The notes under the pieces: model-generated
Seen by the model: the letters and a program-made list of their open reading frames with translations, nothing else
Databases searched by the model: none
What the model was told of the DNA's origin: nothing
In this document: positions 1,757-44,667 of the stretch, one piece after another
How positions within the stretch are numbered: position 1 is the stretch's first letter
How the letters are laid out: the number at the start of each line of letters is the position of its first letter
Made by a program: the position numbers and the translations under genes
Assembly: GCF_035594765.1 (NCBI RefSeq)
Contig: NC_085844.1
Span: forward strand, 10,121,923-10,185,922
Reading direction: 5' to 3'
From: Anolis carolinensis
Lineage: Eukaryota
DNA: 64,000 nucleotides

Positions 1757-1854
1757 TGTTAGTTTGGTTATTTTGAAGTCCCTCTCATAACTTATCCTTT
1801 TCACTTATGCTGTTTTGCTTAGATGCCATGTTAATATCTGAAATGGAACACAAC

Positions 1855-1901
1855 ATGTCTGAGTTTGTCAATGCTCGTACAAGCCTTAGGTCTGAAAATA
1901 G
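1855..1901 (+). CDS. MRGPR/MAS-like gene 1, upstream coding exon (MSEFVNARTSLRSEN; alternative in-frame ATGs at 1828 and 1843)
   Basis: Acceptor TTTTGCTTAG|1823 and donor AG|GTACGT at 1902. Phase 2, in frame with the acceptor at 4426. Homologous 47-nt segments at 9513 and 25092. Confidence 0.8.
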
Positions 1902-2332: not shown

Positions 2333-3485
2333 TTACTTTACTTACTTACTACTTAGGCGATCCCTCGTAGGCCAAAGATGATGGTCCTTCGTTTCTGGTA
2401 TCTTGGGGGTGTGTCTGTAGGTGGCTGAAGAGACCTATTCTTGATCTGCATGTTCTCCCGCAGTGAGGACATTGGTTTCCAGGTGGAAGGCGGTCCCGGT
2501 CAGGGTTGGCTTGACGCTCCTTCCTCTTGGCACGTTTCTCCCTTAAACCCTCTGTTCGTGCCTCTTCGAACTCTGCAGCACTGCTGGTCACAGCTGACCT
2601 CCAATTAGAGCGCTCAAGGGCCAAGGCTTCCCAGTTCTCAGTGTCTATGCCACAGTTTTTAAGGTTGGGTTTAAGCCCATCTTTAAATTTCTTTTCCTGC
2701 CCACCAACATTCCGTTTTCCGTTCTTGAGTTCGGACTGCTTTGGGAGATGGTGATCGGGCATTCGGACAACGTGGCCAGTCCAGTGGAGTTGATGGCGTA
2801 GGAGCATCGCTTCAATGCTGGTGGTCTTTGCTTCTTCCAGCTGGCACTTGTCCTCCTGTCTTCCCAAGAGATTTGCAGGATTTTTCTGAGGCAACGCTGT
2901 TGGAAATGCTCCAGGAGTTGAGTGTGACATCTGTAGACCATCCACGTTTTGCAGGCGTAGAGCAGGGTTGGGAGGACAATGGCTTTGTAAACAAGCACCT
3001 TGGTATCTCTAGGGATGTCCCGATCATCAAACACTCTCTGCTTCATTCTGAAAAATGCTGCACTCACAGAGCTCAGGCGGTGTTGTATTTCAGTGTCAAT
3101 GTTGACTTTTGTGGAGTGGTGGCTGCCAAGGGAGCAGATATGGTCGATATTTTCTATTGTTACGCCATTAAGCTGTATTCCTAGCATTGCAGAGGGATTA
3201 GCTGGTGCCTGCTGGAAGAGGACTTTGGTTTTCTCAATGTTCAATGAGAGGTTGAGCTTCTCGTATGCTTCTGCGAAGGTGTTTAGAGTGGCTTGAAGGT
3301 CTTCTTCTGAATGTGCACAGACTACATTGTCATCGGCATATTGGAGTTCTATAATATATGTTGTGGTGACCTTGGTTTTGGCTTTCAGTCTGCTGAGGTT
3401 AAATAGCTTGCCATCTGTCTGACAGATTATTTCCACTCCGGTGGGAAGCTTCCCATCAACAAAGTGAAGTATCATAGTGATGAAG
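2333..3485 (-). mobile_element. 5'-truncated RTE-clade LINE (RT C-terminus plus C2H2-like tail), frameshifted
   Basis: QYADD RT motif and CPHCGRTC...LFSHLQTH in ORFs 2645-3475 and 2349-2945. (TAAG)n-like tail. 11-bp TSD ATTATTATGCT at 2322-2332 and 3486-3496. Confidence 0.93.
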
Positions 3486-3518
3486 ATTATTATGCTACTA
3501 CTGTGGTAGTAGTAGTAG

Positions 3519-3788
3519 TTTTTTTTTTTACCATGTCACAAGAAAGTTGAGAATATGCTGCAAGTCACCTCTGGTGTGAGGGAATTAGCCATCTACAGAG
3601 ATATTGCCCAGTAGACGTCTGGATGTGTTAGCTGGGAGGCTTCTCTGATGTCCCCGCAAGCTAGAGCTGAACGATGGGAGCTCTCCCCGTCTTGCAGATT
3701 CGTACCGGCAACCTTCAGATCAGCAACCCAACCTTCAGGTCAGCAGTTCAGGCGGCACAAGGGTTTAACCCATTGTACCACCGCGGCA
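3519..3788 (-). mobile_element. tRNA-derived SINE (Sauria-type, poly-A tailed subfamily)
   Basis: Similar to 15800-16060, 21122-21380 and 29623-29882. Confidence 0.8.
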
Positions 3789-4425: not shown

Positions 4426-5383
4426 GTCTTTCTATAAACATGGACTGAAATGCTTACTTATGCTCTACACAGATGCATATCCAACCATAAATGGAAGTAC
4501 TGGGATTAGACCTTCAATTGACATTTCAAATCTAAATGGAAAAATGATCAACATTGTTATTGTTCTAGTCTGCCTTTTGGGAATTCTTGGAAATGGAAGG
4601 GTCATTTGGGTTCTTGGCTTCAGCATTAAAAGGAATTCTTTTACAACCTACGTCATGAATCTTTCCATTGCTGATTTTGGGGTCCTCACCTGCCTGCTTG
4701 GCATTGCTTCTATTCAATTTGTATTGAATTCATCTAGTGGAATCCTTGCTATCTTTCTCTATATTTCAATAACCACTGAGCTACTTTTCCTCACTTTTTT
4801 TTCCAGCCAGTTTCTGTTGACAGTCATAAGCATTGACAGGTGTGTGGCTGTTTTCTTTCCAATTTGGCATCGATGCCACCGGCCCCCATATTTATCCACT
4901 GTTGTTTGTGCCATAGTTTGGGTAGTTTCTTTCCTGCTCTCTGGAATTCGTTTTACTCTCATCTACATTTTTTGCTCACGACATATAATATTCGTCCTTG
5001 AGGTGATTGGTCTGCTTTGCCCCCCTCTCATGATCATTTCCACTCTGACTCTGTTCATCAAAGTCTGCTGTAAACTGAAGCAATACCAGCAAGGAAAGCT
5101 TGTTACAACTGTTTTGCTTACACTCCTCTGTTTTTTAATGCTTATTGTGCCTGATATAATCTATAAACTGGATCCTAATTTTCATGTTGCTCTCCTGTCT
5201 TGGATTGCTATTGCCTGTGCTTCTGTGAATAGTAGCATCAACCCATTGATCTATTTCTTAGTCGGGAGGAGGCAAAAGAAGGGTCGGGCCAAAGTCTCCA
5301 TGAAGGTTGCACTTGAGAGGGTTTTCAAGGATGAGCAAGATGTTGTGGAAGAAGAAACGCCTATGGAAGAAATCCATGTATAA
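4426..5383 (+). CDS. MRGPR/MAS-like GPCR gene 1, main coding exon (334 aa when spliced to 1855-1901)
   Basis: 7TM with GN, NLSIADF, SIDRC, PIWHRCHRP and NSSINPLIYFLVG motifs. Acceptor TTTTTGCAG|G. Frame is open from the acceptor. Confidence 0.95.
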
Positions 5384-9060: not shown

Positions 9061-9512
9061 CCAATCTTTTACAGTACTCATCTCCAATGCTTCTGAACTT
9101 ATAAGGCAGAGAAGTGACAGGCTTGGCAGAGTGATCTCGTTCAGCCTCTTCCACCAAAGGGCCACTTTATTCAATGTAATTGTTAATGAAATGGGGCATT
9201 TTGAGACCACCATTTCTAGTGAATGATAAATAAATAAAACTATACATTTATTCAGATAGAAGTGAAATTTACTGCCAGTGGAAGAATGTGTTTTTTTCTC
9301 CACAGAAAACTGACACAGTTCAAAATAACTAGACTTGACCCATGCCTTGACTGAAATTGGGCAAAAACAGTTCCAAACCCAGTGTCCTCAAGCATTATTA
9401 TTACTCCTATTATCTCTCAGCTTGGATATATTGAAGATCCTCTCATAACTTATCTCTTTTGCTTATGCTGTTTTGCTTAGATGTCATGTTAATATCTGCA
9501 ATGGAACACAAC

Positions 9513-9559
9513 ATGTCTGAGTTTGGCAATGCTCGTACAAGCCTTAGGTCTGAAAATTG
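9513..9559 (+). CDS. MRGPR/MAS-like gene 2, upstream coding exon (MSEFGNARTSLRSEN)
   Basis: Acceptor AG|9481, donor TG|GTACGT at 9560, phase 2. Near-identical to 1855-1901. Confidence 0.75.
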
Positions 9560-10342: not shown

Positions 10343-11918
10343 AGCTAGTCCACAAAGCCACTTGCCTATCAAGAAACTCACAAAGTGTTTAAAAGAGAAA
10401 GGAAACAAATATAGATAACGGAGGCCGTAACTACCAACTTTGGATAATTGCATGAACCACATCATAACCTATAGAAAAAGAGACATACTTTTGAATATTT
10501 CCAAAAGAGGATTTAAAATACTGCTTTATGGGTCTCTTTAAAAAAATGTAAACACCATTATTCTTCCCCATTTCCCCCATAGGAACAGGATAAGCAACCT
10601 GTCAAACCCCCTGTCCACATGTGGAAAACGTTCGGTAAGTATGTAAATGTATTCTATAATTCAATCAGAGAAATAACTGTGTATAACTATTCACTACGCT
10701 TAATGCAAAAAAACCAAAAAAACAAACAAAACCTCAGGCAACATGGGGAGGTGGAGTGCCTGTTCCCCCACCTCCTAGCAAAGTAGCTTGGGAGAAGCAC
10801 TTCCCACTTCTCAGAATCTGCCTTACTCAGTCACATGGCAGCAATCTGACCTGAGCTGTGATAAATGCATTTTTTTTTGTCTTTTGAAGGGAAATTTGGG
10901 ATACCGGCTGGGTGTGGGGTGATCCTGCCCCTTTCCAACAGGCTTTAGCACAGCTGGGCTATGGGCCACTGTCCCACCACTGAGATGGTTGACAGGACCC
11001 TAATGTGGCCATAATGCAGCTCTGAACAGGTATGTTTAATACCGGTTCAGAGCTGCCGTATGTGCCTTTGTAGAACTGTCCAATGTAATTTTATACAACT
11101 TTAGCCACTATGACCCATGGTTAAGGAATCATGTAGTTTTATTTATTTATTTATTACATTGTTTCTACCCCACCCTTCTCACCCCTCAGGGGACTCAGGG
11201 CGGCTTACAATATAAACATATACATCAAAACAATTTATATCACATCTAAAAATCCATTTAGATTAAAAATTACATTAAAATTAAGAGCTTACATTAAAAA
11301 ACCTACATAGTTATACATATAAATATATGTTCAGGCGCATTTCAAGTCCAAGTAGGGGCAATCAGTGAGTCGTATAATTATCATATTAGTCATGCAACAC
11401 CCTTCTGAGGACTCTCCAGAAAGAAATCATGTCACAAGTTTGTGTTTACACAAAAAAGGGGAACATCCTAAATATTCTGATTTCAATTTTGTCAGGTCAA
11501 ATGACAATTATAGTTTTAAAGCCCCTAAGAAAACAGAGCTAAGGCATTAACAACTAGCAATTAATAAAGTATCCTCAGCAAATGCGAAATCTATTGAAAA
11601 TGAAATCTAAAGCAGGCCTCTTCACATGCACTGCTCTGCCTTAACAAAAACATATTTGGATGGTTGAATATGGACATTTCTTTTACAAGATCTTTAGCCG
11701 TTCCTGCCAAACACTGCTGGTGCCTCAAGAAATTACAAATCCTATGATTCCATAGCATTGAGCCATGGCTTCTAAAGTGGCGTTAAATGCATTAATTCTA
11801 CAGCATAGAAGCACACTTTCGCCATTGTAATGCTGTATTTCCTTGATTCTAAGATGCAGTCCCAGCATATAAACAGTTCTAAAAATATGATGTCTCTTAG
11901 AATATTGTTTGGTTTATA

Positions 11919-25657: not shown

Positions 25658-26656
25658 ATATAGAATCATAGAATCATAGAATCATAGAATCATAGAATAG
25701 TAGAGTTGGAAGAGACCTCAAGGGCCATCTAGTCCAACCCCCCGCTAAGAAGCAGGAAATCGCATTCAAAGCACCCCCGACAGATGGCCATCCAGCCTCT
25801 GCTTAAAAGCCTCCAAAGAAGGAGCCTCCACCACGGCCCGGGGGAGAGAGTTCCACTGCCGAACAGCCCTCACAGTGAGGAAGTTCTTCCTGATGTTCAG
25901 GTGGAATCTCCTTTCCTGTAGTTTGAAGCCATTGTTCCGTGTCCTAGTCTGCAGGGCAGCAGAAAATAAGCTTGCTCCCTCCTCCCTATGACTTCCCCTC
26001 ACATATTTGTACATGGCTATCATGTCTCCTCTCAGCCTTCTCTTCTGCAGGCTAAACATGCCCAGCTCTTTAAGCCTCTCCTCATAGGGCTTGTTCTCCA
26101 GACCCTTAATCATTTTAGTTGCCCTCCTCTGGACGCTTTCCAGCTTGTCAGCATCTCCCTTCATCTGCGGTGCCCAAAACTGGACACAGTATTCCAGGTG
26201 TGGTCTGACCAAGGCAGAATAGAGGGGGAGCATGACTTCCCTGGATCTAGACGTTATTCCCCTATTGATGCAGGCCAAAATCCCATTGGCTTTTTTAGCT
26301 GCCGCATCACATTGTAGGCTCATGTTTAACTTGTTGTCCACGAGGACTCCAAGATCTTTTTCGCACACACTGCTGTCAAGCCAGGCGTCCCCCATTCTGT
26401 ATCTTTGATTTCCATTTTTTCTGCCGAAGTGAAGTATCTTGCATTTGTCCCTGTTGAACTTCATTTTGTTAGTTTCGGCCCATCTCTCTAGTCTGTCAAG
26501 ATCGTTTTGAATTCTGCTCCTGTCTTCTGGAGTGTTAGCTATCCCTCCGAGTTTGGTGTCATCTGCAAACTTGATGATCGTGCCTTCTAACCCTTCGTCT
26601 AAGTCGTTAATAAAGATGTTGAACAGAACCGGGCCCAGGACGGAGCCCTGCGGCAC
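25658..26656 (-). mobile_element. Young 5'-truncated CR1 LINE in gene 3 intron
   Basis: Uninterrupted 296-aa RT C-terminus ([12 protein letters not shown]); (ATTCTATG)n 3' tail. Confidence 0.97.
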
Positions 26657-27930
26657 AGTTCAGTGCAGATGATCTGGATTTTATATGGCAATATAGAAGG
26701 GGTCTAAATTACAGCTCCATGATTTTATAGCATTGAGCCCTGGCAATTAAAGTGGCTCCATATTCCATTAATTCTACAGTGCAAAGGCACCCAGAATCCA
26801 TCTTTTCTATCTGTATCTGGAACCATTCTTCTTAAGCCCCGTCTACATTGCCCTATATCCCAGGAGCCAATTGCAATTATGTGCTTTAAACTGGATTATA
26901 TGAGTCTTCACTGCCAGATAATAAGATAATCTGGGATCAGATACTGGGATATAGGTGCAGTGTGGAAGGGGCCTACGTCTTAAGAATAAGATCTTCCATC
27001 CACAATGTCATCAGCAGTCTCTACAGTAGACATGAACAAACTTGGGTCCTCCAGGTGTTTTGGACTTTGGATGCTGAGGATGCTTAAAATATAAGCCCTA
27101 TTTCAAAAATAAGCCCTAGATATAGTTCATTTAAAAAGTCAATTTGGAAAAACAAGATTCCCCTGAAAACAAGCCATAACGCATCTTTTGGAGCAAAAAT
27201 TAATATAAGACCCTGTCTTATTTTGGAGGAAACAGGGTAGATTTAGATTATTGTAGAAGCGTCCTGAGATTCAGATTTTTCAAAGCGTTCAACTGGTATC
27301 TCTTATCTTAACCTGCAGTTGTGCATTGATCACTCTGAAAGCTTACAAAAGAGCTGTTCCTTAGCTTTCCTACAATATGAAATTTTAATTTCATTTCACT
27401 TCCAGGCTGGAGCTTACGGAATTTAAAAAGAGACATGGGCAGGTGTATTGAGTAGCTGCTTTTTCCTCTTTGGAGTTTCTCCTTCCCTGAATGAGAACAT
27501 ATTCCATCGTGTGGTTTCAGCAATAGGGGGTCCGTATGCTATCTCCAACTGCTCCATCTAAAACAAAGTAAAATAATTTGAAGGTTTGCAAAAACACACC
27601 TTGACCTCAAATTTATTATCCTGTGACATGTTTTTTTATATGGAATCATGAATGAAATTACTTTTTTTTTTATATTGGGAGCTAAGTGGGGTTAGAACTG
27701 GATGGGAGTCCAATAATGAATATTTCAAAGGGAGGACATGGCAAAATAGGAAAATTCTATGGATTTTGTGGGTTAGACAGATAATTGAAGACATGTGTAC
27801 ATTTAGTTGAACAACCACAACCTGGGAATTCAAAGTAAGATTGTGCAAGGAAATGAAAATTGTAGTATTTTTTTTTCTTTCTGATTTCTGAATAGGAACA
27901 GAATCACTTTTGTCTATCTTCTCTTTGCAG

Positions 27931-33420: not shown

Positions 33421-34050
33421 CCCTATATTACATGGGTATTTATAGGCTAATTCAAATAGGCTAATCAATGGAAAGAGTGAACTCCCACTCTATTACCCAT
33501 CACAGCAATAAGGAATGTCTGGTTACAAAGTGTACAGCAAACACTGAGAGTAGCAGGGATTGCAAATGTTAGAGTTTTAGAAGAAAAGGCACAGGACACA
33601 TTTACACTACACCATTATAGCACTTACTGTACTGCTATTTCACTTTATCTGTCATAGTTCCACCCTATGGAAATCTGGAATTTGTAGTTATGATGCACTG
33701 GGGAGCTCTCTGGCTGAGAACACTAAATGTCTCTTACCCAACTGCAAACTTTAGGATTGTACAGAACAAAACCATGGCAGTTTAAGTAGAACAACAGTGG
33801 CATAACTCTGTATTGCGAATTGGCCCACAGAGTGTCTTACTGAGTTAGGTGCAGCCTTTAATATAGTGAAGCAATACAAAATGCCATGGAAATATATCTG
33901 GTTATCTTATTGTAGTACAGACATTGCAACATTTCTTTAAAAGGCTTTCCTAAGTGCATCTTGATGTTGCTTATAAAGTTGCCTTTTATTTTACAAAGTA
34001 ATGTTAAGATATTGTTAAGCGTAATGGTGGACATTGCCCATAACAGGACA

Positions 34051-35062
34051 TCAAACAGTGGTTACACTTGAATTGTTCTGTTCTTCATTATGGTCATGCT
34101 CATCCTTGAAGACCCTCTGGAGTGCCACCTTCACGGACACTCTGGGCTGACCTTTCTTTTGTCTCCTCCCAATTAAGAAATAGATCAGAGGATTGATGCA
34201 ACTGTTCAGAGAAGCACAGACAAAACCTGCTACCATTAGGCTGTGAAGAGAGGTGTGATAATGATTTATAATATAGAACACATTAAGTGGAAAAGCAAAG
34301 ATGAGGAAGAAGAGGAGGGCAAGCAAGATGGATGTGACAAGCTTTCCCCTCGGATGTTGTTTTGTTTTACACCATAATTGAATGAACAGGATCAGAGTGG
34401 AGGTAACCATGATAGGAGTGCAAATCAGAACATTCACAATAAGTGGATACAACAGTGGAGTATTGCCAAAGCGCTTAGTTCTATGCAGAGTGAAGTGAAT
34501 TGCAGAGAGCACAAAAGAGAGGATCCAGGTTAGGGTACAAACAATGGGGGACAAACACGGAGGCCGGTGGCATCGATGCCAAAGTGGGAAGAGGACGGCC
34601 ACAGATCTGTCAATACTGATGGCAGCCAATAAATATTGACTTGCAGAATATGTGAGAAAAAATAACTCCAGAGAAATAAGGAAAAAAAGAGTGTGAATAT
34701 TGATTTCATTATACTGACCCACAGACATCCCCAAAGCAGCAGTGCTAATTAGAAAGACAAGGACCCCGAAGTCAGCTATGGAGAGGTTTAGGATGTAAGT
34801 GGTGAAAGGATTTCTCTTCATGCAAAAGCCAAGAAGCCAAATGACCATTCCATTTCCCACAAGACCTAAAAGGCAGGTTATGACAACAAAACTATTGATG
34901 ATAATTTCTGTTATACTATCAGGAGATACATGATCAGTGCTATTAATTGGTTGCCAAATCCCAGCACTTCCGTTTATGTCTGGATAAAGAGTTAGCTTGT
35001 TTTCCAAATCTCCAGAAGCAGTGTTGTCATCCATAATGTTGCTAACTTCTATATAAACTGGC
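34051..35062 (-). CDS. MRGPR/MAS-like GPCR gene 4, main exon (internal ATG at 35034 gives 327 aa)
   Basis: 7TM motifs (DRS, FPLN, NPLIY); acceptor TTCACAG|G at 35062; frame open from the acceptor in phase 2. Confidence 0.95.
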
Positions 35063-35619
35063 CTGTGAACAGAATGAGACAAACATAAATAAATTTCTAT
35101 TATGGAATTGTACCCACAAAAATGATTATGGTTTCCCACCCTTACATAATCATATTACTTTACCTGCCATTTGAGTAAAGGACACTGATTAAAACAGTTG
35201 ATACATACAACACCACCTTAATATATTGCATAAATCAGAATTGCGTTGTTTATAATTCACCACAGGGATTGTTTTATAAAAACAAAGTTTCATTTTCTTC
35301 CTTCTTGAGTGATTTTTAAAGACTTCTTCTAGGAAGGTTTGAATGGATAAGTGGTAGGATGATGCAGCTGAAACATTTCTTACAATGTTGCTGGTGGTGC
35401 TAGTGATGTTTTGATAATTGTTTGAGATCTTGGTTTTGATCCTGTTAAGGTGTTCGGTGGAGGTCTGATATTTTTGCTATGCACTGATGTGTTACACAGT
35501 TTCTTTTACAATTCAAACCAACTGACAGACTGTTCATTGAAAGTGGTTAAACTTATGTTTACGTCAACCTCATGTATAAGGCAGGTTTGGGGCCTAAATT
35601 ATTGATTGTGATATGATAA

Positions 35620-35915
35620 GATTAGTCTGGCATGACTTGTTTTTGAGAAATTCATGTTGACTTTTAGTAATCACAGCCTTCTTTTCTAAATGATTACAGG
35701 CTGCCTCTTTAATGATCTGCTCCAGAATCTTTCCTAGTTTTGATGTCAGGCTGATTGGATATAGTTCCTTCTTGAAGAGAGGGACAACATTTGCCCTCCT
35801 CCAGTCATAAAATCATAGAATCATAGAGTTGGAAGAGACCACATAGGCCATCGAATCCAACCATCTGTCATGCAGGAAAAGCACAAAGTATCCCTGAGAG
35901 ATGGCCATCCAGCCT
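35620..35915 (-). mobile_element. CR1 fragments
   Basis: CR1-like internal sequence plus a CATAGAAT tail. Confidence 0.6.
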
Positions 35916-35973
35916 CTGTTTCAACAGCCAGCATAGGCATGTTGTTTGCTGTGTACGAATCTTGTTCTGTATA

Positions 35974-36024
<51 letters not shown>

Positions 36025-36452
36025 TCCGTAGCCCACTTGTCGATGGATGTCCAGAATCAGCAGAATCCTGGGCGACGACTGAGCCAGTATAGACTTCCTC
36101 CCTTTCAAGATAAATGAAATATGGATAGAACCCCCTGTTTTGATCCCTCCCAATCAAACATAAAGAAATGCAGAGTGAATACCACAATAGTCAAACATAC
36201 TTAAAAACCAGACACAAGATGAAATAATATAATATGTAGCTTTGAGTGATTGACACTCAAGTCCTTGTGGCTTCCAGTTATAGTTTTAAAACATTTTCAC
36301 CACTTCATCCGTGTTTCTTAATTCTTATTTCTCTCTTCACTAGAACTGCTTGCTGCAATGAAAAGCTTTCACCTAATTTCATAGTATACCTACTTATGTT
36401 GTCTTTCTTTTAGACATGTCCTAGAAATTATGCATTAAAATAAGATACTTAC

Positions 36453-36479
36453 CAAACAGGTATCACATTGTAAAATTCT
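36453..36479 (-). CDS. Putative 27-nt symmetric (phase 2-2) micro-exon of gene 4 (EFYNVIPV)
   Basis: Poly-T...ACAG acceptor and TG|GTAAGT donor; open in the gene 4 frame. Confidence 0.6.
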
Positions 36480-36750
36480 CTGTAAAAAAAAAATGGAATG
36501 ATTTTTTACTTCCCCGATATGTAGGAAAAATGGAGATTGTAAATATTTGCCACTTCAAAAACGTTAATATACATGCATATATAGTTATTTGTTGTAAGAC
36601 TTCATACATTTTTCACATTTCTTTGCCATTTGTGCATTATCCCAGAAAGTTCACCAACTTCAGAATAAACTCATAAAGTTCTTCATGCCTGCCTGTTATC
36701 AGGAACCCTAGTTAGAAGTAGATCTTTCTCATCTTTTGCTTTTTATAGTA

Positions 36751-37073
36751 CAGTAGAGTCTCACTTATCCAAGCTAAATGGGCTGGCAGAACCTTGGATA
36801 AGCGAATATCTTGGATAATAAGGAGGGATTAAGGAAAAGCCTATTAAACAGCAAATTAGGTTATGATTTTACAAATTAAGAACCAAAATGTCATGTTATA
36901 CAACAAATTTGATGGAAAAAGTAGTTCAATGCGCAGTAATATTATGTTGTAATTACTGTATTTACAAATTTAGCACCAAAATATCATGATATATTGAAAA
37001 CATTGACTACAAAAATGCCTTGGATAATCCAGAACCTTGGATAAGCAAGTCTTGGATAAGTGAGACTCTACTG
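36751..37073. mobile_element. Tc1/mariner-type MITE
   Basis: 23-bp TIR CAGTAGAGTCTCACTTATCCAAG; TA TSD. Confidence 0.95.
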
Positions 37074-39715
37074 TATCAAAATATCATTTCTGTATTTCAG
37101 GGTGGTTGTGCTGGATGCCTACGAGTGTGTCTTTTCTGGTAAGTTCTGGTGATATTTTGTGGCTCTTTTCTGAGTCCTGTTATGTGGCCTCCTGCAATGT
37201 ACAAAACATGGCTCTTCCGGTGTGCTTTCGGAGAGTAATTGTATGTACCTCCTGTGTTTCTCTCCCCAACATGTATTCTGTAGACCCTGTTCCCATGGTT
37301 TTATTCTTATCTCTTCTTACCCCGAGTTTTTAACCTTGTGTCCATGCGGCCCGCCCTTGTTATGTTATGCTACGTTCTGCTTTTTTGTTCTGTATTGTGT
37401 AGTGTTATTGTTGCATTGTTTAATTGCATTCTGATATGTTGTTTTTATATTTTGTCTATTGTATTGTCTTGGGCATGGCCCCATGTGAGCCGCCCCGAGT
37501 CCCCGTTGGGGAGATGGTGGCGGGGTATAAATAAAGTTTTATTATTATTATATTACAATCCTTACCACATTTTGACTAGTTTTTAAATATCTATAGTATT
37601 TTTTATTTATAATGCCTGGAACCATTATGCATTCATCTGCCTGTAATTTGCAGACACATAGATAATGAGATAGCTTGAAGCTAGAGCCCAAGTTAAAACA
37701 TGAAACTCATTGATGTTTCATATACACCATGCATACATAGCCTGAACCTAATTTATATGCAATATTTTAAAATTATTTTGTGCATGATATCAGGTTTGTG
37801 TATGCTGAAATATCAGAAAGTCAAGGTATTCTTTTTTCAGTCACCCATGTGGACAATTCTGGATTTTGGAATTCTGGATATGGGATGATCAATTAATATT
37901 TTTTCAGTTTTTTCATTTTTTTTCATATTTTGTTCTTTTGTTAAGCCATTACCGTGCAATCCTGTCTGCGAAAAGGTGGGACAGGGGTGAAGAAAAATAA
38001 AAAGGGGGTGCTGTTATTCCAAGGCCATCACTTTTCCTGAGACCTATTGTTCCAGAAGCCTTGTTTTTGAAAACTGCCTTCATCCTCTACTTTAGATTTC
38101 AAGCATCCAACATACCACCTTATCACAGTCATAGGACACTTCAGCCTCTTTTCAAGCATGGAGAGGCACTGAGCTCATCACAAGAGTTAAACTACTTCTG
38201 GCCATCATGCATGGCCCTTTGTGCCTGAAAAGAGGCAGAAGTGTCCTGAAAGGAAGAAACTCTGGCAATCAACCTTATCACATTGAGAAATTTCCCCTTG
38301 ATAGGACAGTTCCGCCTCTTTTCAAGCAGAGAGAAGCACAGAGCTCATCACATGTTCCAGGGTTGAAAAGAAGCAGAAATGCCCTGAAAGGAGGGAACTT
38401 TGAACACGGGCCAGCAATCGTGTTCAGGGCTTCTGCCTCTTATCACACTTTACTCCCATCTTTACCACTGAAAAACAGGTCGGATGGAAACCACCACAGT
38501 TTCCCCATTCAGTTTCATTGCCCAACCATCAGCATTCTCTTGTATCCTAGGGGTTGAATGTAGAACAATAGGCTCCCATGGAAAGCATTTGTTTTAATCT
38601 GGCTCACTGTCTCTTGTATCCTCTGGGGTTCCATGTAGATCAGTAAGATCCCATGGGAAGATGAGGTTTTAAACTGGTGTTGGTCTCCTTTAATGTAAGG
38701 AGTTTTTGGCAGGGAAAAGGATCTCTTGGTTTTTGGATATTGTTGTGTCTCCTGATTACAAAATGTAATAGTGACCTTGTGATGAATGTATTGTCAGCGC
38801 TTAAGTTTCTACATGAGAGTCTGATGGGGAGGCAGAACTCCAAAGGGGGCAATGCTCTCTCTTAAAGGGATGGTCACTCATGCTATCTCTTCTCAATGTG
38901 ATGAGGTGGCTAATTCTTACTTCTTTCTTCACCAGAACTAACTGCAAGCTCTTACTTAGTTTATTAGAGTACTCAGTTTATTTAGATTATGTATTGGAGG
39001 GGATGTGCAGCTTTATTTGCAAGTTGGCCCAAACACATCTCTTGTAGCCCGCAAGGCTTCTTGCTTTTTATAACATCTATTGTGGTTTTCCACCAGTATT
39101 CCACCATATCAGACCAACACAAATTTATAGAAATGTAAAGTCTAGCTTCCCCAAAAATTTGCTTTTTGGCTGGAATTCAGTTGTAAACATACCTCTAAGT
39201 GTCCCAACATGGCAGAAACAATTCCAGTTAAACATCTGCAATCCCATGTTTTTATTTTCCTTGAAAAAGTCCCATTTTTCTTCTCTCCCACCCACTTTCT
39301 ACCCTTATTCTTAGCTTACTTCAATTTTTTAAATCAGAGTTCCGGATGCAAAAGTAGTTTGCATTCAATTAACTCAGAGGAGAGGAGAGGAGAGGAAAGG
39401 ACAATAAGTTAGCTTCTGCATCCACTTCTGGATTTTGTGTTCTTCCACATTCATAACATTTGGTATTTGAACCATCTGTTTTCATCTGTGAAAGGCTGGT
39501 ACATTGGACACAGAGAAACAAATTGTGTCTTCCCCCTTCACATACCCATTGGCACATCCTTGGCTTTGTTCTACCTCTCGCTTCAACCTCTGTATAGACA
39601 GCTACTATCAAGAATGGCAATGCAGAAAAGCTGATGATGCCCACTTACAGATATGTAGGAAGTGATTGTAGGGTTTCAGTTCAGAGGCTTTGCTTTAATA
39701 CCATAACATACATAC

Positions 39716-39785
39716 CTCTTTTGATAGAATGAATCATTGCCATAGTCTGACACATTATATTCCACTTTAAGATTTTCTGTGATAC
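39716..39785 (-). CDS. Putative upstream exon of gene 4, homologous to the gene 1-3 upstream exon (ITENLKVEYNVSDYGNDSFYQK)
   Basis: CTGTTTTGTGTAG acceptor and AG|GTATGTATG donor mirror gene 1. SDYGN matches gene 3. Ends in phase 2. Confidence 0.7.
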
Positions 39786-42257
39786 CTACACAAAACAGTG
39801 ATAAATCAGTGGCAGAGATTGATATTATTCTGCAGCCCAAATGACAACATTTATTTATTTATTTATTTCATACATTTGTATCCTGTCCTTCTCACCCCCC
39901 CCCCCCCCCGGGGGGGGGGTGTTCAGGACGGTTTCACAACCGGCAGTCATTAGATGCCAAAAACAAACAATTATAAAACAAGTACAATTAAAACAGGTAG
40001 TTAAAACATCAATTATAAAAACATCATTTAAAAATTGCACAAGTCTAGGTCACAGTCCAGGGTCTGACCATTATCAGACACATAAATAATTCTTATTATT
40101 ATTGCTGTGTTTGCTTTTAAAAGCAACCTTTTCAATTTGGAGATATACAGTACATTTTATTTCTAAAAAGTGTCTTTCCTGATGATATACCAAAATTATC
40201 TCTTAATTATCTTTATTCATTAGAGTTGGCACACCAAATAACATGGATAACTGAAGTAATAAATCTAATAGCTGGGACATACACAACTTGCCATCTCCAC
40301 AACATAAAAGCAAAAGTTTCTCCAGTTCATGCATTTATATATTCTTATATTTTGCCAATGTACTGAAATATGAAAGGCACCTACAAAGATTGAAGGGAGG
40401 AAAAGAAGATGCCTTTGCTTTTCCAAGATGCACACCCATATATAAAAATAGGTCTCCAATTAAATTTTGCCTTAGATCCAGATCAATCCACACATGATCT
40501 GACTTGTACCATGAATCTCAATTGAAATTAAACATAGCTGCAATCTTTCTAATTTCACTAGATAGATAGAGTGGTAGATAGAAATTGGAGGCATGATCAA
40601 CCCTTAGGAGAAGCTCAGCTCTCCCGGATTTCAGATGTTTAACAGCAAATATTTTCCCCATCTGTTGCCATTGTAGATTCCATAATGCGATCATTGAATA
40701 TTCTTTATCAGAGGTAACCCAGAAGCAACTAGTTACATGATGATATATCTATCTGTTATTTGTACCTGTGAAGGATAGAATGTCCTCAACCATTATGCAT
40801 TCCGTTGTAAAATGGTTGTTTTATGTTTTCAATGTCTTCTTAACAGAGTGTTGAAATATCACAAGAAACTTGAATGCAGAGTAATACAGATGATCCAAGA
40901 TCAAACACACTGCAGAACAACAACACAGAATGGAAGAGGCATATCAATGCACTGAACTAAGCTGAATTTATTTCATTGCTAAGACTCAGCAGATTATCTA
41001 GACATGATTCAGATCAACATACCTATCCATGTTATTTTCATATTATTGTTCTTTTCAATCTTAATGTGTAAATGTATTTCACATATCAGCTTCCCAGAAA
41101 TATTATTCCAATAACAGATTAATTGCTGCTTTGTTCAAGGCTTTTGCCAGTTGTCATTTTACCTCTGGAGCACATTCAGGTTTTTCCTGAATTTGAGAGC
41201 TTTAGCACATGAACATGCTCTCACACTTCAGTCATGATATCATTGAAAGCAGATGCTCATGGTTCAGCAATTGTGCTTCTACACATCCTCATAACCTTGC
41301 CTTCCTGCACTGCCACTTTTTCTTAATTTTAATGCAATTGTGAAATTACAGAAGTTTTTAAAAAGTTACACACATATACATATACATATATACACATGCA
41401 CCCCCCCCCCATATTCATTCGATGCTAGTGCGCCATCCAATGTAATGTACACCACAATTTTCAAAACCCTGAAACCAAAAAAAAAGTCTGTTGATAAATA
41501 TAATGCACAGTGGCAAAATGTGCACTCTTTGTAATTTGTTCTAAAAAGATGTACATTGTGCATCACAGTGCTGTGTGCTTAGAATTCTTTTTTAAAAAAA
41601 CAAAAAGTGCTGGAACACCAAAGCTTCCAGCAAGGGAAAGGAAAGCCAGAGAGACCCTTCCCTCAAGGAGCTTCTCCTGTTTGTTAGACATGTGAGCAGA
41701 ACCATTTCCATTTGTTTCATCTGTTCTTCAGTTTCTTCTGTTACCTTCAGAAGCATGGAATGGGAAGCCCCCTCGGCATTTGTGACTACATGATGCTCCT
41801 AGTTCAACTGAGCTCCACGCCATCAACTCTTTCTTCCCTGAGACTCCTTGAAATGTGCAGACAAGGAGTTCCCCCCTCCCTTCCTCCCTCTCGCAGTCTC
41901 TCTCTTGGGGAGACAGACCAGGTGCTGCAGAAGTCTGGATAAGGACAAACAATCCCAGAAAGGGGGGTATCTTTAACCCTCCCAGGTCCAGCCTCCTCCT
42001 CCTTCACCACCAACATGGAATAGCAGCAGCAACAACCAAGCTTCCAGCTTGCATCAGCAGAAGGAGTGGGGATCAAGGCTAGGCACTGCATGCAACCAAG
42101 GGCCAAGGAGCTCCTCCCTCCCTCCCTCCCTCAGCCTCTCTCTCACCTGGCACCTCAGGAGCCTCAAAGCCAAGCCTCATCTGCCTGTCTTCTAGAGTAG
42201 AACAGCTTTAAGAAGCATTAAACCCAGTCTCCTCCTCTACAAAGGGAAAAGAACCAG

Positions 42258-42312: not shown

Positions 42313-44667
42313 GTTTTCTTACATGGAATGAAAATGTCCATTCGGAAATGCTCTCACTTTTGGGAGGCAAGTAGAATGGGAACAGGGGGCTTCTGGTTCA
42401 AACAAGCAGAAATAAATAGTGATTCTACACAAATGTACAGCCCTACTGTTTGTCTCATCTCAACTTCCTTGGTTGAATCTATGCTGTAGAATGAATGCAG
42501 CTTGATATGACTTTCACTGCCCTGTCTCAACATTATGAAAGCCTAGGGTCTGTACTTTGAAAAGGTCTTGAGTTTTCTCAGCCAAAGAGTGCTACTGCTT
42601 TGTCAAACTATAATTCCCAGGATTCTATAGCTCTTCCAAAAAGGTTAGACTTATATAGACTTGGAAGAGTAGCATTTAAGAAGGACTATCCTATTGTCCT
42701 TTAAAACCCCTCACATTCTCTAATCCACGTCCATTGGCAAAGCAACCCCTAGCTGGTTATGATATTTAGACTAGCTCACCTGCTGCATTGTGGAATTAAT
42801 CATCATTTGCGATTCTTTATCAAGAATTCTCAAAGTCAGAATTGAACATTTCACTTGTTTTTACCAGCTAAAATGAATGACAGAATTGCAAAAGCATTTG
42901 TGCAGGCTCAGAGTTTGCAAAAGCTACCTTTTTTAACACCCAAGTTTAGCATTGGTCACAAAAACTGGAAGATTTGAAGGATTGTATCCCAAAAAGCAAA
43001 CAAACAGTGCTGGGGGAATTGTATCCCAAAAAGCAAGCAAAATAAATAAAAAACACCACTGTCCACTCTGTGGCCAATGTCAGACCTACCTGGTGATAAT
43101 GTATGATGTGATTCAACAGTTCAAGGAAAAGAGTCCACCCTGCTGCATGTAGTTTCATTGAGATTCTAACATGACTAGTCTTAGAAGACACTGCAGCATT
43201 TACCCAGTAATAAATCTATCAGTGTTTGCAGAAAGAAAGGAAAAAGAGGATCTTGAGGTTTTCATCTGAAGTCAAACTAAAGATGCTGTCATGCCCTCCA
43301 CAGGATGTTATAGAGGAACTTTGAGCCAGCTGGTATAATTCTGAAGAACTGTTAAGTTCAACAACAGCCATTTCCCATATCTGTCTTCTATTCTATGAAA
43401 CCATTTCAGGAGTCTGAACAGTGTCACAGAGCCCATCTAAATAGGACCAAGTGAGCCAGAACAGGGGTGAATGGGCATCTAAATGATGTGCAGGGTCAAT
43501 TTGCCCATGGTTGTTTAATGGGGCCTTCTCCTGCATTAAACAAAACCAAGAGATGTCCTAGAGTTTTCCTTGGACAATTCTGATTCAGATCCAGCTGCAG
43601 GCACCTCAGGGACAGAGAGTGGCACCTACCATTTCTGTTGTGCCCTTGGCTTAGCAGTCACCACCAGGACCAGGTGATTGTCATTCGTCACATGTTCTAA
43701 CATTGGCCCCAGAATGATTGGAGAAGGAAGGGGGAAAGGCAGGGGAAAGGAGGGGAAAATTATTTCTTCTTGCTTTCCTTTTTCTTTGTTGCTCTGGTGC
43801 TCTGGACAGTGTCAGAACATGTGAGGAGAGAGAACCACCACACAGCAAAGGATATAATGGGGATGGTAAGGGTGACCATTCAAGTGATGCCTAGCCAGGT
43901 TCAGCACCACTGGCCCATGAGGGCTCCTTCCTGCCACCAGGCCTGCTTGGTGCCATGTAGAGTGGAAATCCACCAGTCACCAAACCAGCTCAGTGGCTGG
44001 CTGTGCGGATTCCCTCTGGCACTGATCCAGAGTACCCAATTGTGCCTGATTGCCAGTGTATGTGGCCCTTAGCAGACAATGGAATTCTAGGTCTAAATGT
44101 TTATTATTTAAGATGTTTATGATCAATCATTTCTGGGAGTTGCCTTGGTTTCCACTGTGGGAAATGCCAAAAACCAGCGCTGGCATACAGATTTAGTACA
44201 GAAAGTAAGGTAAGAGACAGGAATATTGCCAAATCATTTAACTCTTAGAAATCCTACTCATGGTTTCATTTTGACCCATCTCATCCTATTTCTCTCATCT
44301 TTATTCTTCATCTCTCTTGCAATCTTTTTTCTTCTCTCTGTATGCCTGTTTGTTTTGCTTTCTCCTCTTCCAGGTGTCTTGAGTCATGTGATTCTTCCCT
44401 TCTATTCTCTCTTTTTTTCCCACAGATCTCTCTTGATCCATTTTTGTTGTTCCTCTTTCCATTCACTTCATTGAAACAGGAGTCCTTCCTCCTCCACCAT
44501 CTATAAATTGAGATATTGATGCCATCTTGCTGAAATTCACTCTTGTTTCCCATCTGATCACCCAAACTTCCAACTTATGAGAAATGATTTTGTCCAAATG
44601 GGAAACATTAACATTAATATTCACCTTAAGTATAATTTATGTGTTGGAATTTCTAGGTATTTACCTT

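What the first reader, a model, noticed from the sequence alone, without database searches (positions are those of the whole stretch)
34051..39785. Gene 4: three-piece N-terminus with a skippable 27-nt micro-exon and GTG at both ancestral ATG positions
Seen: exon 39785-39716 is collinear with the gene 1 upstream exon from the acceptor (VEYNVSDYGNDS vs MEHNMSEFVNAR), has two sequons and ends in phase 2. Joined to 36479-36453 and then 35062 it stays open: ...FYQK-R-EFYNVIPV-W-PVYIEVSNIMDD. The micro-exon is phase-symmetric and its EFYN echoes EFVN/EFGN. The exon has no in-frame ATG. Options: a further phase-1 exon (candidates ATG 41041 to donor 41022, or the CAG|GTGAGA donor near 42146), GTG initiation, or use of ATG 35034 with these exons as UTR.
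Basis: partly seen in the sequence, partly recalled or inferred. Interest (0 to 1): 0.7.

Follow-up and report, generated by a model that had tools for sequence, protein, structure and literature searches.

The report
Lizard Mas-like receptor with spliced N-tail

Summary
Gene 4 is an Anolis carolinensis Mas/MRGPRH-like class A GPCR, already in RefSeq/UniProt as a 378-aa protein (XP_003219532.1, G1K8B0). All three coding joints appear in contigs of 7 of 7 RNA-like runs from 6 studies, and in 0 of 1 DNA-like run. The micro-exon was included every time. No skip joint was listed, but contigs lose minor forms and 30 joint rows were hidden. ATG 40793 has a strong context and an in-frame stop 9 codons upstream. 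The two GTGs are therefore most likely internal valines, and the proposed 41041/41022 and 42146 options are unsupported. The 'EFYN echo' is chance-level. The micro-exon instead ends in a [V/I]W motif seen across squamate relatives. Verdict: known gene, low interest.

The parts
43090..43215 (-). 5' UTR exon (126 nt as far as contig X1 reaches), donor CAG|GTAGGT; holds four short upstream ORFs
   Evidence: joint 40909/43090 in X1 and X7, pieces in X11 and X4; uORFs
40766..40909 (-).
   Evidence: exact map of XP_003219532.1; joint 39785/40766 in 7 of 7 RNA-like runs
40786..40800 (-). 4-codon out-of-frame upstream ORF that overlaps the main ATG
   Evidence: its effect is untested
39716..39785 (-). 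70-nt coding exon (phase 1 to phase 2), residues 10-33, sequons N20 and N26; GTG codons at 39765 and 39753 encode Val17 and Val21
   Evidence: joints
36453..36479 (-). 27-nt micro-exon, phase 2-2, residues 33-42, ends in the split Trp42 codon
   Evidence: both flanking joints in 7 of 7 RNA-like runs; motif conservation
33803..35062 (-). Main exon: rest of the N-tail, 7TM domain (Pfam 7tm_1), stop at 34053-34051, 3' UTR to at least 33803; internal ATG 35034 = Met52

Best explanation
Gene 4 is a spliced Mas/MRG-family class A GPCR gene whose mRNA includes the 27-nt exon in every RNA-like run examined, and which is likely translated from the normal ATG at 40793 into the annotated 378-aa receptor. 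Shown: the exon chain 43215-43090, 40909-40766, 39785-39716, 36479-36453, 35062-33803; an open frame of 378 codons; an in-frame stop 9 codons upstream of the ATG. Inferred: the three small exons add 42 residues to an acidic, tyrosine-rich extracellular N-tail of about 94 aa with four N-glycosylation sequons and no signal peptide. Inferred: the two GTGs are ordinary valines. Because the upstream exon supplies the start, the Met codons that genes 1 and 2 keep at these positions were free to drift. Inferred from family knowledge (recalled, not tested): the receptor signals through a G protein on binding small, probably cationic, peptides, with the tail aiding surface delivery and ligand capture. 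The micro-exon is most likely included by default, and is a short form of an old exon whose [V/I]W end is conserved.
For: The 100%-identical database protein XP_003219532.1/XP_008106534.1/XP_008106535.1/G1K8B0 maps exactly to the four exons. Three coding joints with GT..AG ends appear in X1, X3, X7, X9 and X11, X12, X4: 7 of 7 RNA-like runs, 6 studies. None appears in X5, which covers all 30 bins including introns. No second near-identical copy turned up in the assembly that could be a retrocopy (next hit 58%). ATG 40793 has A at -3 and G at +4. Sceloporus and Phrynosoma relatives start with a similar 10-residue piece (P0004, P0007, P0010). P0004, in the clade sister to the two Anolis sequences (98/91), has Leu where gene 4 has its first GTG. 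Trp42 is matched in 23 of 47 ungapped rows of 119 homologues and Val41 by V/I in 37 of 47, against 1.2% Trp in N-tails. Tail composition: 16 acidic, 4 basic, 6 Tyr, 4 sequons, first strongly hydrophobic window at residue 92.
Against: Only assembled contigs were available. They drop minor isoforms, and 11 and 19 joint rows were hidden; a real joint (40909/43090) was among those hidden, so a skip joint could be too. The runs' RNA nature is the tool's guess and tissues are unknown. The database protein is a prediction, probably built from similar RNA data, so it is not fully independent. No ribosome or proteomic data show which codon starts. Five upstream ATGs, one overlapping the main ATG, could divert some ribosomes. 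The Sceloporus model P0004 lacks the micro-exon stretch, and 24 of 47 aligned rows do not have the Trp. A search with residues 1-75 alone found only the protein itself, so the tail diverges fast. The start-exon pattern (4 of 120 proteins) was written after seeing those proteins.
Confidence: 0.92

Rival explanations
1. The 27-nt exon is a regulated cassette micro-exon, skipped in some tissue to give a receptor 9 residues shorter.
For: It is phase-symmetric and the skipped join is open. Its size fits the 3-27 nt microexon class (passages of PMC12626424). Genes 1 and 3 are open when their homologous 70-nt-type exon is joined straight to the main exon at phase 2, and the P0004 model lacks this stretch.
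Against: It was included in 7 of 7 RNA-like runs, with no skip joint among the 30 listed rows. Its splice sites are strong (13 of 15 pyrimidines, GTAAGT). The only TGC in the 100 nt upstream lies 98 nt from the acceptor, whereas 74-79% of SRRM3/4 microexons have one between branch point and AG, though it is not strictly required (passages of 10.1101/2024.09.17.613571).
Confidence: 0.15
2. Translation starts mainly at GTG 39765 or 39753 (non-AUG initiation at the ancestral Met position).
For: GTG sits where genes 1 and 2 have ATG. GTG 39765 has A at -3 and G at +4. 20 of 120 homologues, all snake proteins, are annotated as starting with a resembling M-E-x-x-F-x-x-S motif (homology to this position is inferred).
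Against: An in-frame ATG in strong context lies 16 codons upstream, in an exon spliced to this one in all 7 RNA-like runs. The position is Leu in P0004 and a stop codon in gene 3, so GTG itself is not conserved.
Confidence: 0.03
3. The small exons act mostly as UTR, and the protein starts at ATG 35034 (327 aa) by leaky scanning or re-initiation after the overlapping upstream ORF.
For: ATG 35034 has A at -3 and G at +4 and leaves a complete 7TM domain with two sequons. A 4-codon uORF overlaps ATG 40793. One low-depth contig reads into the intron at 35063-35175. The Anolis sagrei model P0002 starts inside the main exon.
Against: The 51 added codons stay open across three introns of phases 1, 2 and 2. 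They match relatives' proteins in motif and keep two sequons. Four more out-of-frame ATGs lie between the two starts.
Confidence: 0.05

Closest known systems
[quoted passage not shown]
   Same: It is this protein: 100% identical, and all four coding exons including the micro-exon are already in the model.
   Different: Nothing in the protein. The record is a prediction; I add junction support from 7 runs.
MAS1 proto-oncogene and MRGPRD/X/E receptors of solved structure (PDB 9x3y, 7y12, 8jgb, 7vdh)
   Same: They are the best matches among solved structures over the 7TM region: MAS E=5.6e-46, MRGPRD 1.4e-41, MRGPRX1 7e-36.
   Different: The matches begin near residue 80-100; the tail has no counterpart. 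The full-length chains are 319-331 aa against 378. That their coding regions lie mostly in one exon is recalled, not confirmed by my searches. The ligand is unknown.
Reptile/sauropsid locally duplicated MRG cluster (PMC6504862, passages read)
   Same: The paper describes a cluster of reptile genes near MRGPRH that may be orthologous or a new subtype. This window lies in a tandem array with over 30 related matches on one contig.
   Different: The passages seen say nothing on exon structure. I did not test which of the paper's clusters this gene falls in.
[quoted passage not shown]
   Same: A tandem GPCR family usually treated as intronless in which some members take N-terminal codons from upstream exons.
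   Different: It is a different GPCR family, with two coding exons there against four here.
SRRM3/4-regulated neural microexons
   Same: 27 nt, frame-preserving, strong polypyrimidine tract.
   Different: No UGC near the acceptor, no skipping seen, fast-diverging sequence.

Membership tests
Class A (rhodopsin-like) GPCR | 7tm_1 domain above the curated cut-off | tested here: met
   71.4 bits against cut-off 30.5, profile 1-260 of 260
Mas/MRG receptor family | 7TM sequence closer to MAS1/MRGPRs than to other class A receptors | tested here: met
   MAS and MRGPR chains E 1e-33 to 1e-46, next group (C3aR, CMKLR1, FPR2) 1e-20 or weaker; named homologues
Mas/MRG receptor family | One-to-one orthology with mammalian MRGPRH or MAS1 | not tested
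   The tree held 31 squamate rows only
Mas/MRG receptor family | Peptide or small-molecule activation of G-protein signalling | not testable with these tools
   needs an assay
Microexon (3-27 nt) | Spliced internal exon of at most 27 nt | tested here: met
   27 nt, both joints in 7 of 7 RNA-like runs
Alternatively spliced (cassette) microexon | Skip junction 39716/35062 exists in RNA | tested here: inconclusive
   absent from the 15 of 26 and 15 of 34 joint rows shown; contigs lose minor forms
SRRM3/4 neural microexon | UGC between branch point and acceptor (typical, not obligatory) | tested here: not met
   only TGC within 100 nt is 98 nt upstream; criterion
SRRM3/4 neural microexon | Neuron-specific inclusion | not testable with these tools
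   the runs' tissues are not given
Non-AUG (GUG) initiated gene | No upstream in-frame AUG in good context on the mRNA | tested here: not met
   ATG 40793 is in frame, in strong context and spliced in

The most novel reading that the evidence does not exclude
Squamate Mas-like receptors diversify a modular, glycosylated N-tail by gaining, shrinking, losing and skipping small frame-compatible exons. Gene 4's 27-nt exon is a regulated switch that adds or removes a conserved Trp motif and so tunes ligand recognition in some tissue.
Probability: 0.12. Interest if true: 0.4.

Novelty: already known. Interest (0 to 1): 0.12.

Why it matters
As it stands it matters little: the gene model, micro-exon included, is already in RefSeq and UniProt. 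The modest value is junction support for that model, and the observation that neighbouring and orthologous models often start inside the main exon (gene 1's 307-aa record; A. sagrei P0002) and may be truncated. If the exon were tissue-regulated, it would give a testable case of splicing tuning an orphan reptile receptor's ligand-facing tail. I found no paper on the exon structure of these lizard genes in four searches (listings seen, passages of one paper read).

Tried and rejected
Candidate exon ATG 41041 to donor 41022: no joint; contig X12 reads through it as part of an extended start exon. Donor near 42146: no splice joint listed there. Micro-exon as a duplicate of the EFVN/EFGN stretch: shuffles match the score in 501-2281 of 3000 trials. 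Nucleotide homologues of the start exon and micro-exon in 444 kb of the cluster: none by blastn; aligning the start exon to the upstream exons of genes 1-3 gave only a patchy match. Search with residues 1-75: only the protein itself among 12 candidates. In one search the gene 2 and gene 3 exon coordinates were off by one; corrected numbers are. The cluster-wide acceptor scan was too crude to give exon structures for distant paralogues. No listed run is on record as RNA; 8 of the 18 holders were laid. Earlier scan notes: none near or alike. Genomes of other squamates were not available, so intron positions in orthologues are untested. No structure prediction was run because it would not bear on the question. 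Paper supplements were not consulted.
Full report
Setting. The window holds five receptor-like ORFs, all scoring above the Pfam 7tm_1 cut-off. It lies on contig C4 of a 1.85-Gb genome, in a tandem array with over 30 related matches between 9.95 and 10.38 Mb; after the self match the next best is 58% identical. [quoted passage not shown] Among solved structures, MAS1 and the MRGPRs are closest.

Checking the observation. Exon 39785-39716 (70 nt) and exon 36479-36453 (27 nt) have canonical sites, and both the included and skipped joins to 35062 are open in one frame. The 70-nt exon is homologous to exons at 1823-1901, 9481-9559 and 25062-25138: 0 of 5000 shuffles reach the score in each case, and the similarity runs on into the donor-side intron. 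Codons 7 and 11 after the acceptor are GTG in gene 4 and ATG in genes 1 and 2. The EFYN echo does not hold up. The best local alignment of the micro-exon to these exons is matched by 902, 889 and 2281 of 3000 shuffles, and the true counterpart of EFVN/EFGN is DYGN within the 70-nt exon.

The missing start. The database protein maps letter for letter to 40793-40766, 39785-39716, 36479-36453 and 35062-34051. On the spliced mRNA this ATG has A at -3 and G at +4, an in-frame stop lies 9 codons upstream, and the frame runs 378 codons. So the coding sequence is complete without a GTG start.

Junction evidence. I laid 8 of the 18 runs that hold the main exon. All are assembled contigs, and their RNA nature is the tool's guess. 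Seven (X1, X3, X7, X9, X11, X12, X4; six studies) each show the joints 40766/39785, 39716/36479 and 36453/35062 with GT..AG ends. X5 covers all 30 bins including introns and shows none of them, so it behaves as a DNA control. Variable 5' ends would fit three RefSeq accessions for one protein (inferred). No 39716/35062 skip joint is listed. However, only 15 of 26 and 15 of 34 joint rows were shown, a real joint was among those hidden, and contigs drop minor forms. Skipping is therefore unseen, not excluded.

What the GTGs mean. Met at these positions is common: genes 1 and 2 have both; gene 3 has a stop at the first and ATG at the second; Sceloporus P0005 has M/T and P0004 has L/M; and 20 of 120 homologues, all snakes, begin with a resembling motif (homology inferred). 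But P0004, P0007 and P0010 from Sceloporus and Phrynosoma begin with a 10-residue piece like gene 4's start exon (4 of 120 by a pattern written after seeing them). In a tree of 31 selected 7TM sequences these fall in two neighbouring iguanian clades; P0004 is in the clade sister to the Anolis pair (98/91), and the joint clade is weak (82/47). The simplest reading (inference) is that where the upstream exon supplies the ATG, the downstream Met codons drift to Val or Leu by single changes.

What the micro-exon is. Its last codons give V-W, with the Trp codon split by the intron. In an alignment of 120 proteins, the Trp column holds W in 23 of the 47 other rows without a gap, and the preceding column holds V or I in 37 of 47; Trp is 1.2% of N-tail residues. 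Twenty-four rows lack the Trp and 72 are gapped, many because the models start later. The motif spans iguanians, anguimorphs, lacertids and snakes (those 22 rows were chosen by eye). Whether the intron position is shared could not be tested. Genes 1, 3 and 4 open their main exon in the same phase 2 on a G. The exon has strong sites and no nearby UGC. In passages of 10.1101/2024.09.17.613571, 74-79% of SRRM3/4 microexons carry such a UGC, though it is dispensable. Default inclusion is the better reading. Against it: P0004's model lacks this stretch, and genes 1 and 3 are open without an equivalent.

How it likely works. Shown: splicing, open frame, 7TM domain. Inferred: residues 1-94 form an extracellular tail with 16 acidic and 4 basic residues, 6 tyrosines and 4 sequons, and no hydrophobic signal segment before residue 92. 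From recalled family knowledge, such a tail would be glycosylated, help surface delivery, and help capture cationic peptide ligands ahead of G-protein signalling; no ligand is known to me. Five upstream ATGs, one opening a 4-codon frame that overlaps the start, would likely damp translation and might allow some use of ATG 35034.

Comparison with what is known. The gene is a Mas/MRG-family member by sequence, and the model is already public. PMC6504862 (passages) notes a locally duplicated reptile cluster near MRGPRH. 10.1101/774612 (abstract and outline) gives a precedent for split coding exons in a GPCR family thought intronless. PMC12626424 (passages) gives the 3-27 nt class. Searches listed no paper on this gene's exons.

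Verdict. This is an already known gene with a conventional ATG start and a micro-exon included in every RNA-like run laid. Interest 0.12. The boldest surviving reading, regulated skipping within a modular tail, has a probability of about 0.12.

Noticed in passing
window 9481-9559, 10583-10634, 12986-14001 (+), gene 2: Gene 2's N-terminus looks frame-broken. Its candidate third exon is 52 nt (not a multiple of 3), and the main exon in the phase-2 frame used by genes 1, 3 and 4 stops after 23 codons. The annotated protein (XP_003219523) starts at an ATG in another frame at the end of that exon.
   Followed up: partly
window 1823-1901 and 4426-5383 (+), gene 1: The database record identical to gene 1 is 307 aa and starts inside the main exon. 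The upstream exon with three in-frame ATGs joins the main exon in frame, so the record may be truncated. No RNA test was done.
   Followed up: partly
window 25062-25138 (+), gene 3: The homologous exon is 77 nt with an in-frame stop where genes 1 and 2 have their 'ME' ATG, leaving only the second ATG as a possible start.
   Followed up: partly
window 24450-24480 (+): A donor resembling gene 4's UTR-exon donor at 43090 (both end ...CACCAG or ...TACCAG|GTAGGT) lies upstream of gene 3's homologous exon. Seen by eye, not tested.
   Followed up: no
window 39719: Polymorphism near the donor of the 70-nt exon (Lys32 to Thr) in X11 and in the DNA-like run X5; the exon is still spliced in X11.
   Followed up: no
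window 35042-35175: One low-depth contig (X3, depth 3.5) reads from the main exon into the intron: pre-mRNA, DNA or intron retention.
   Followed up: no
G000:C4 10219297-10268224 and four other hits in the array: Several cluster members appear in two pieces or with internal stops, i.e. likely pseudogenes in the tandem array.
   Followed up: no
window 2349-3535 (-) and 25766-26659 (-): Open frames that resemble fragments of LINE-type reverse transcriptases in introns of genes 1 and 3 (the resemblance is recalled, not tested). High-copy repeats also lie at 36749-37555.
   Followed up: no
window 37620-37634 and 40788-40802 (-): An exact 15-nt match covering the gene 4 start codon recurs in intron 3 (E 0.26); probably chance.
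   Followed up: no
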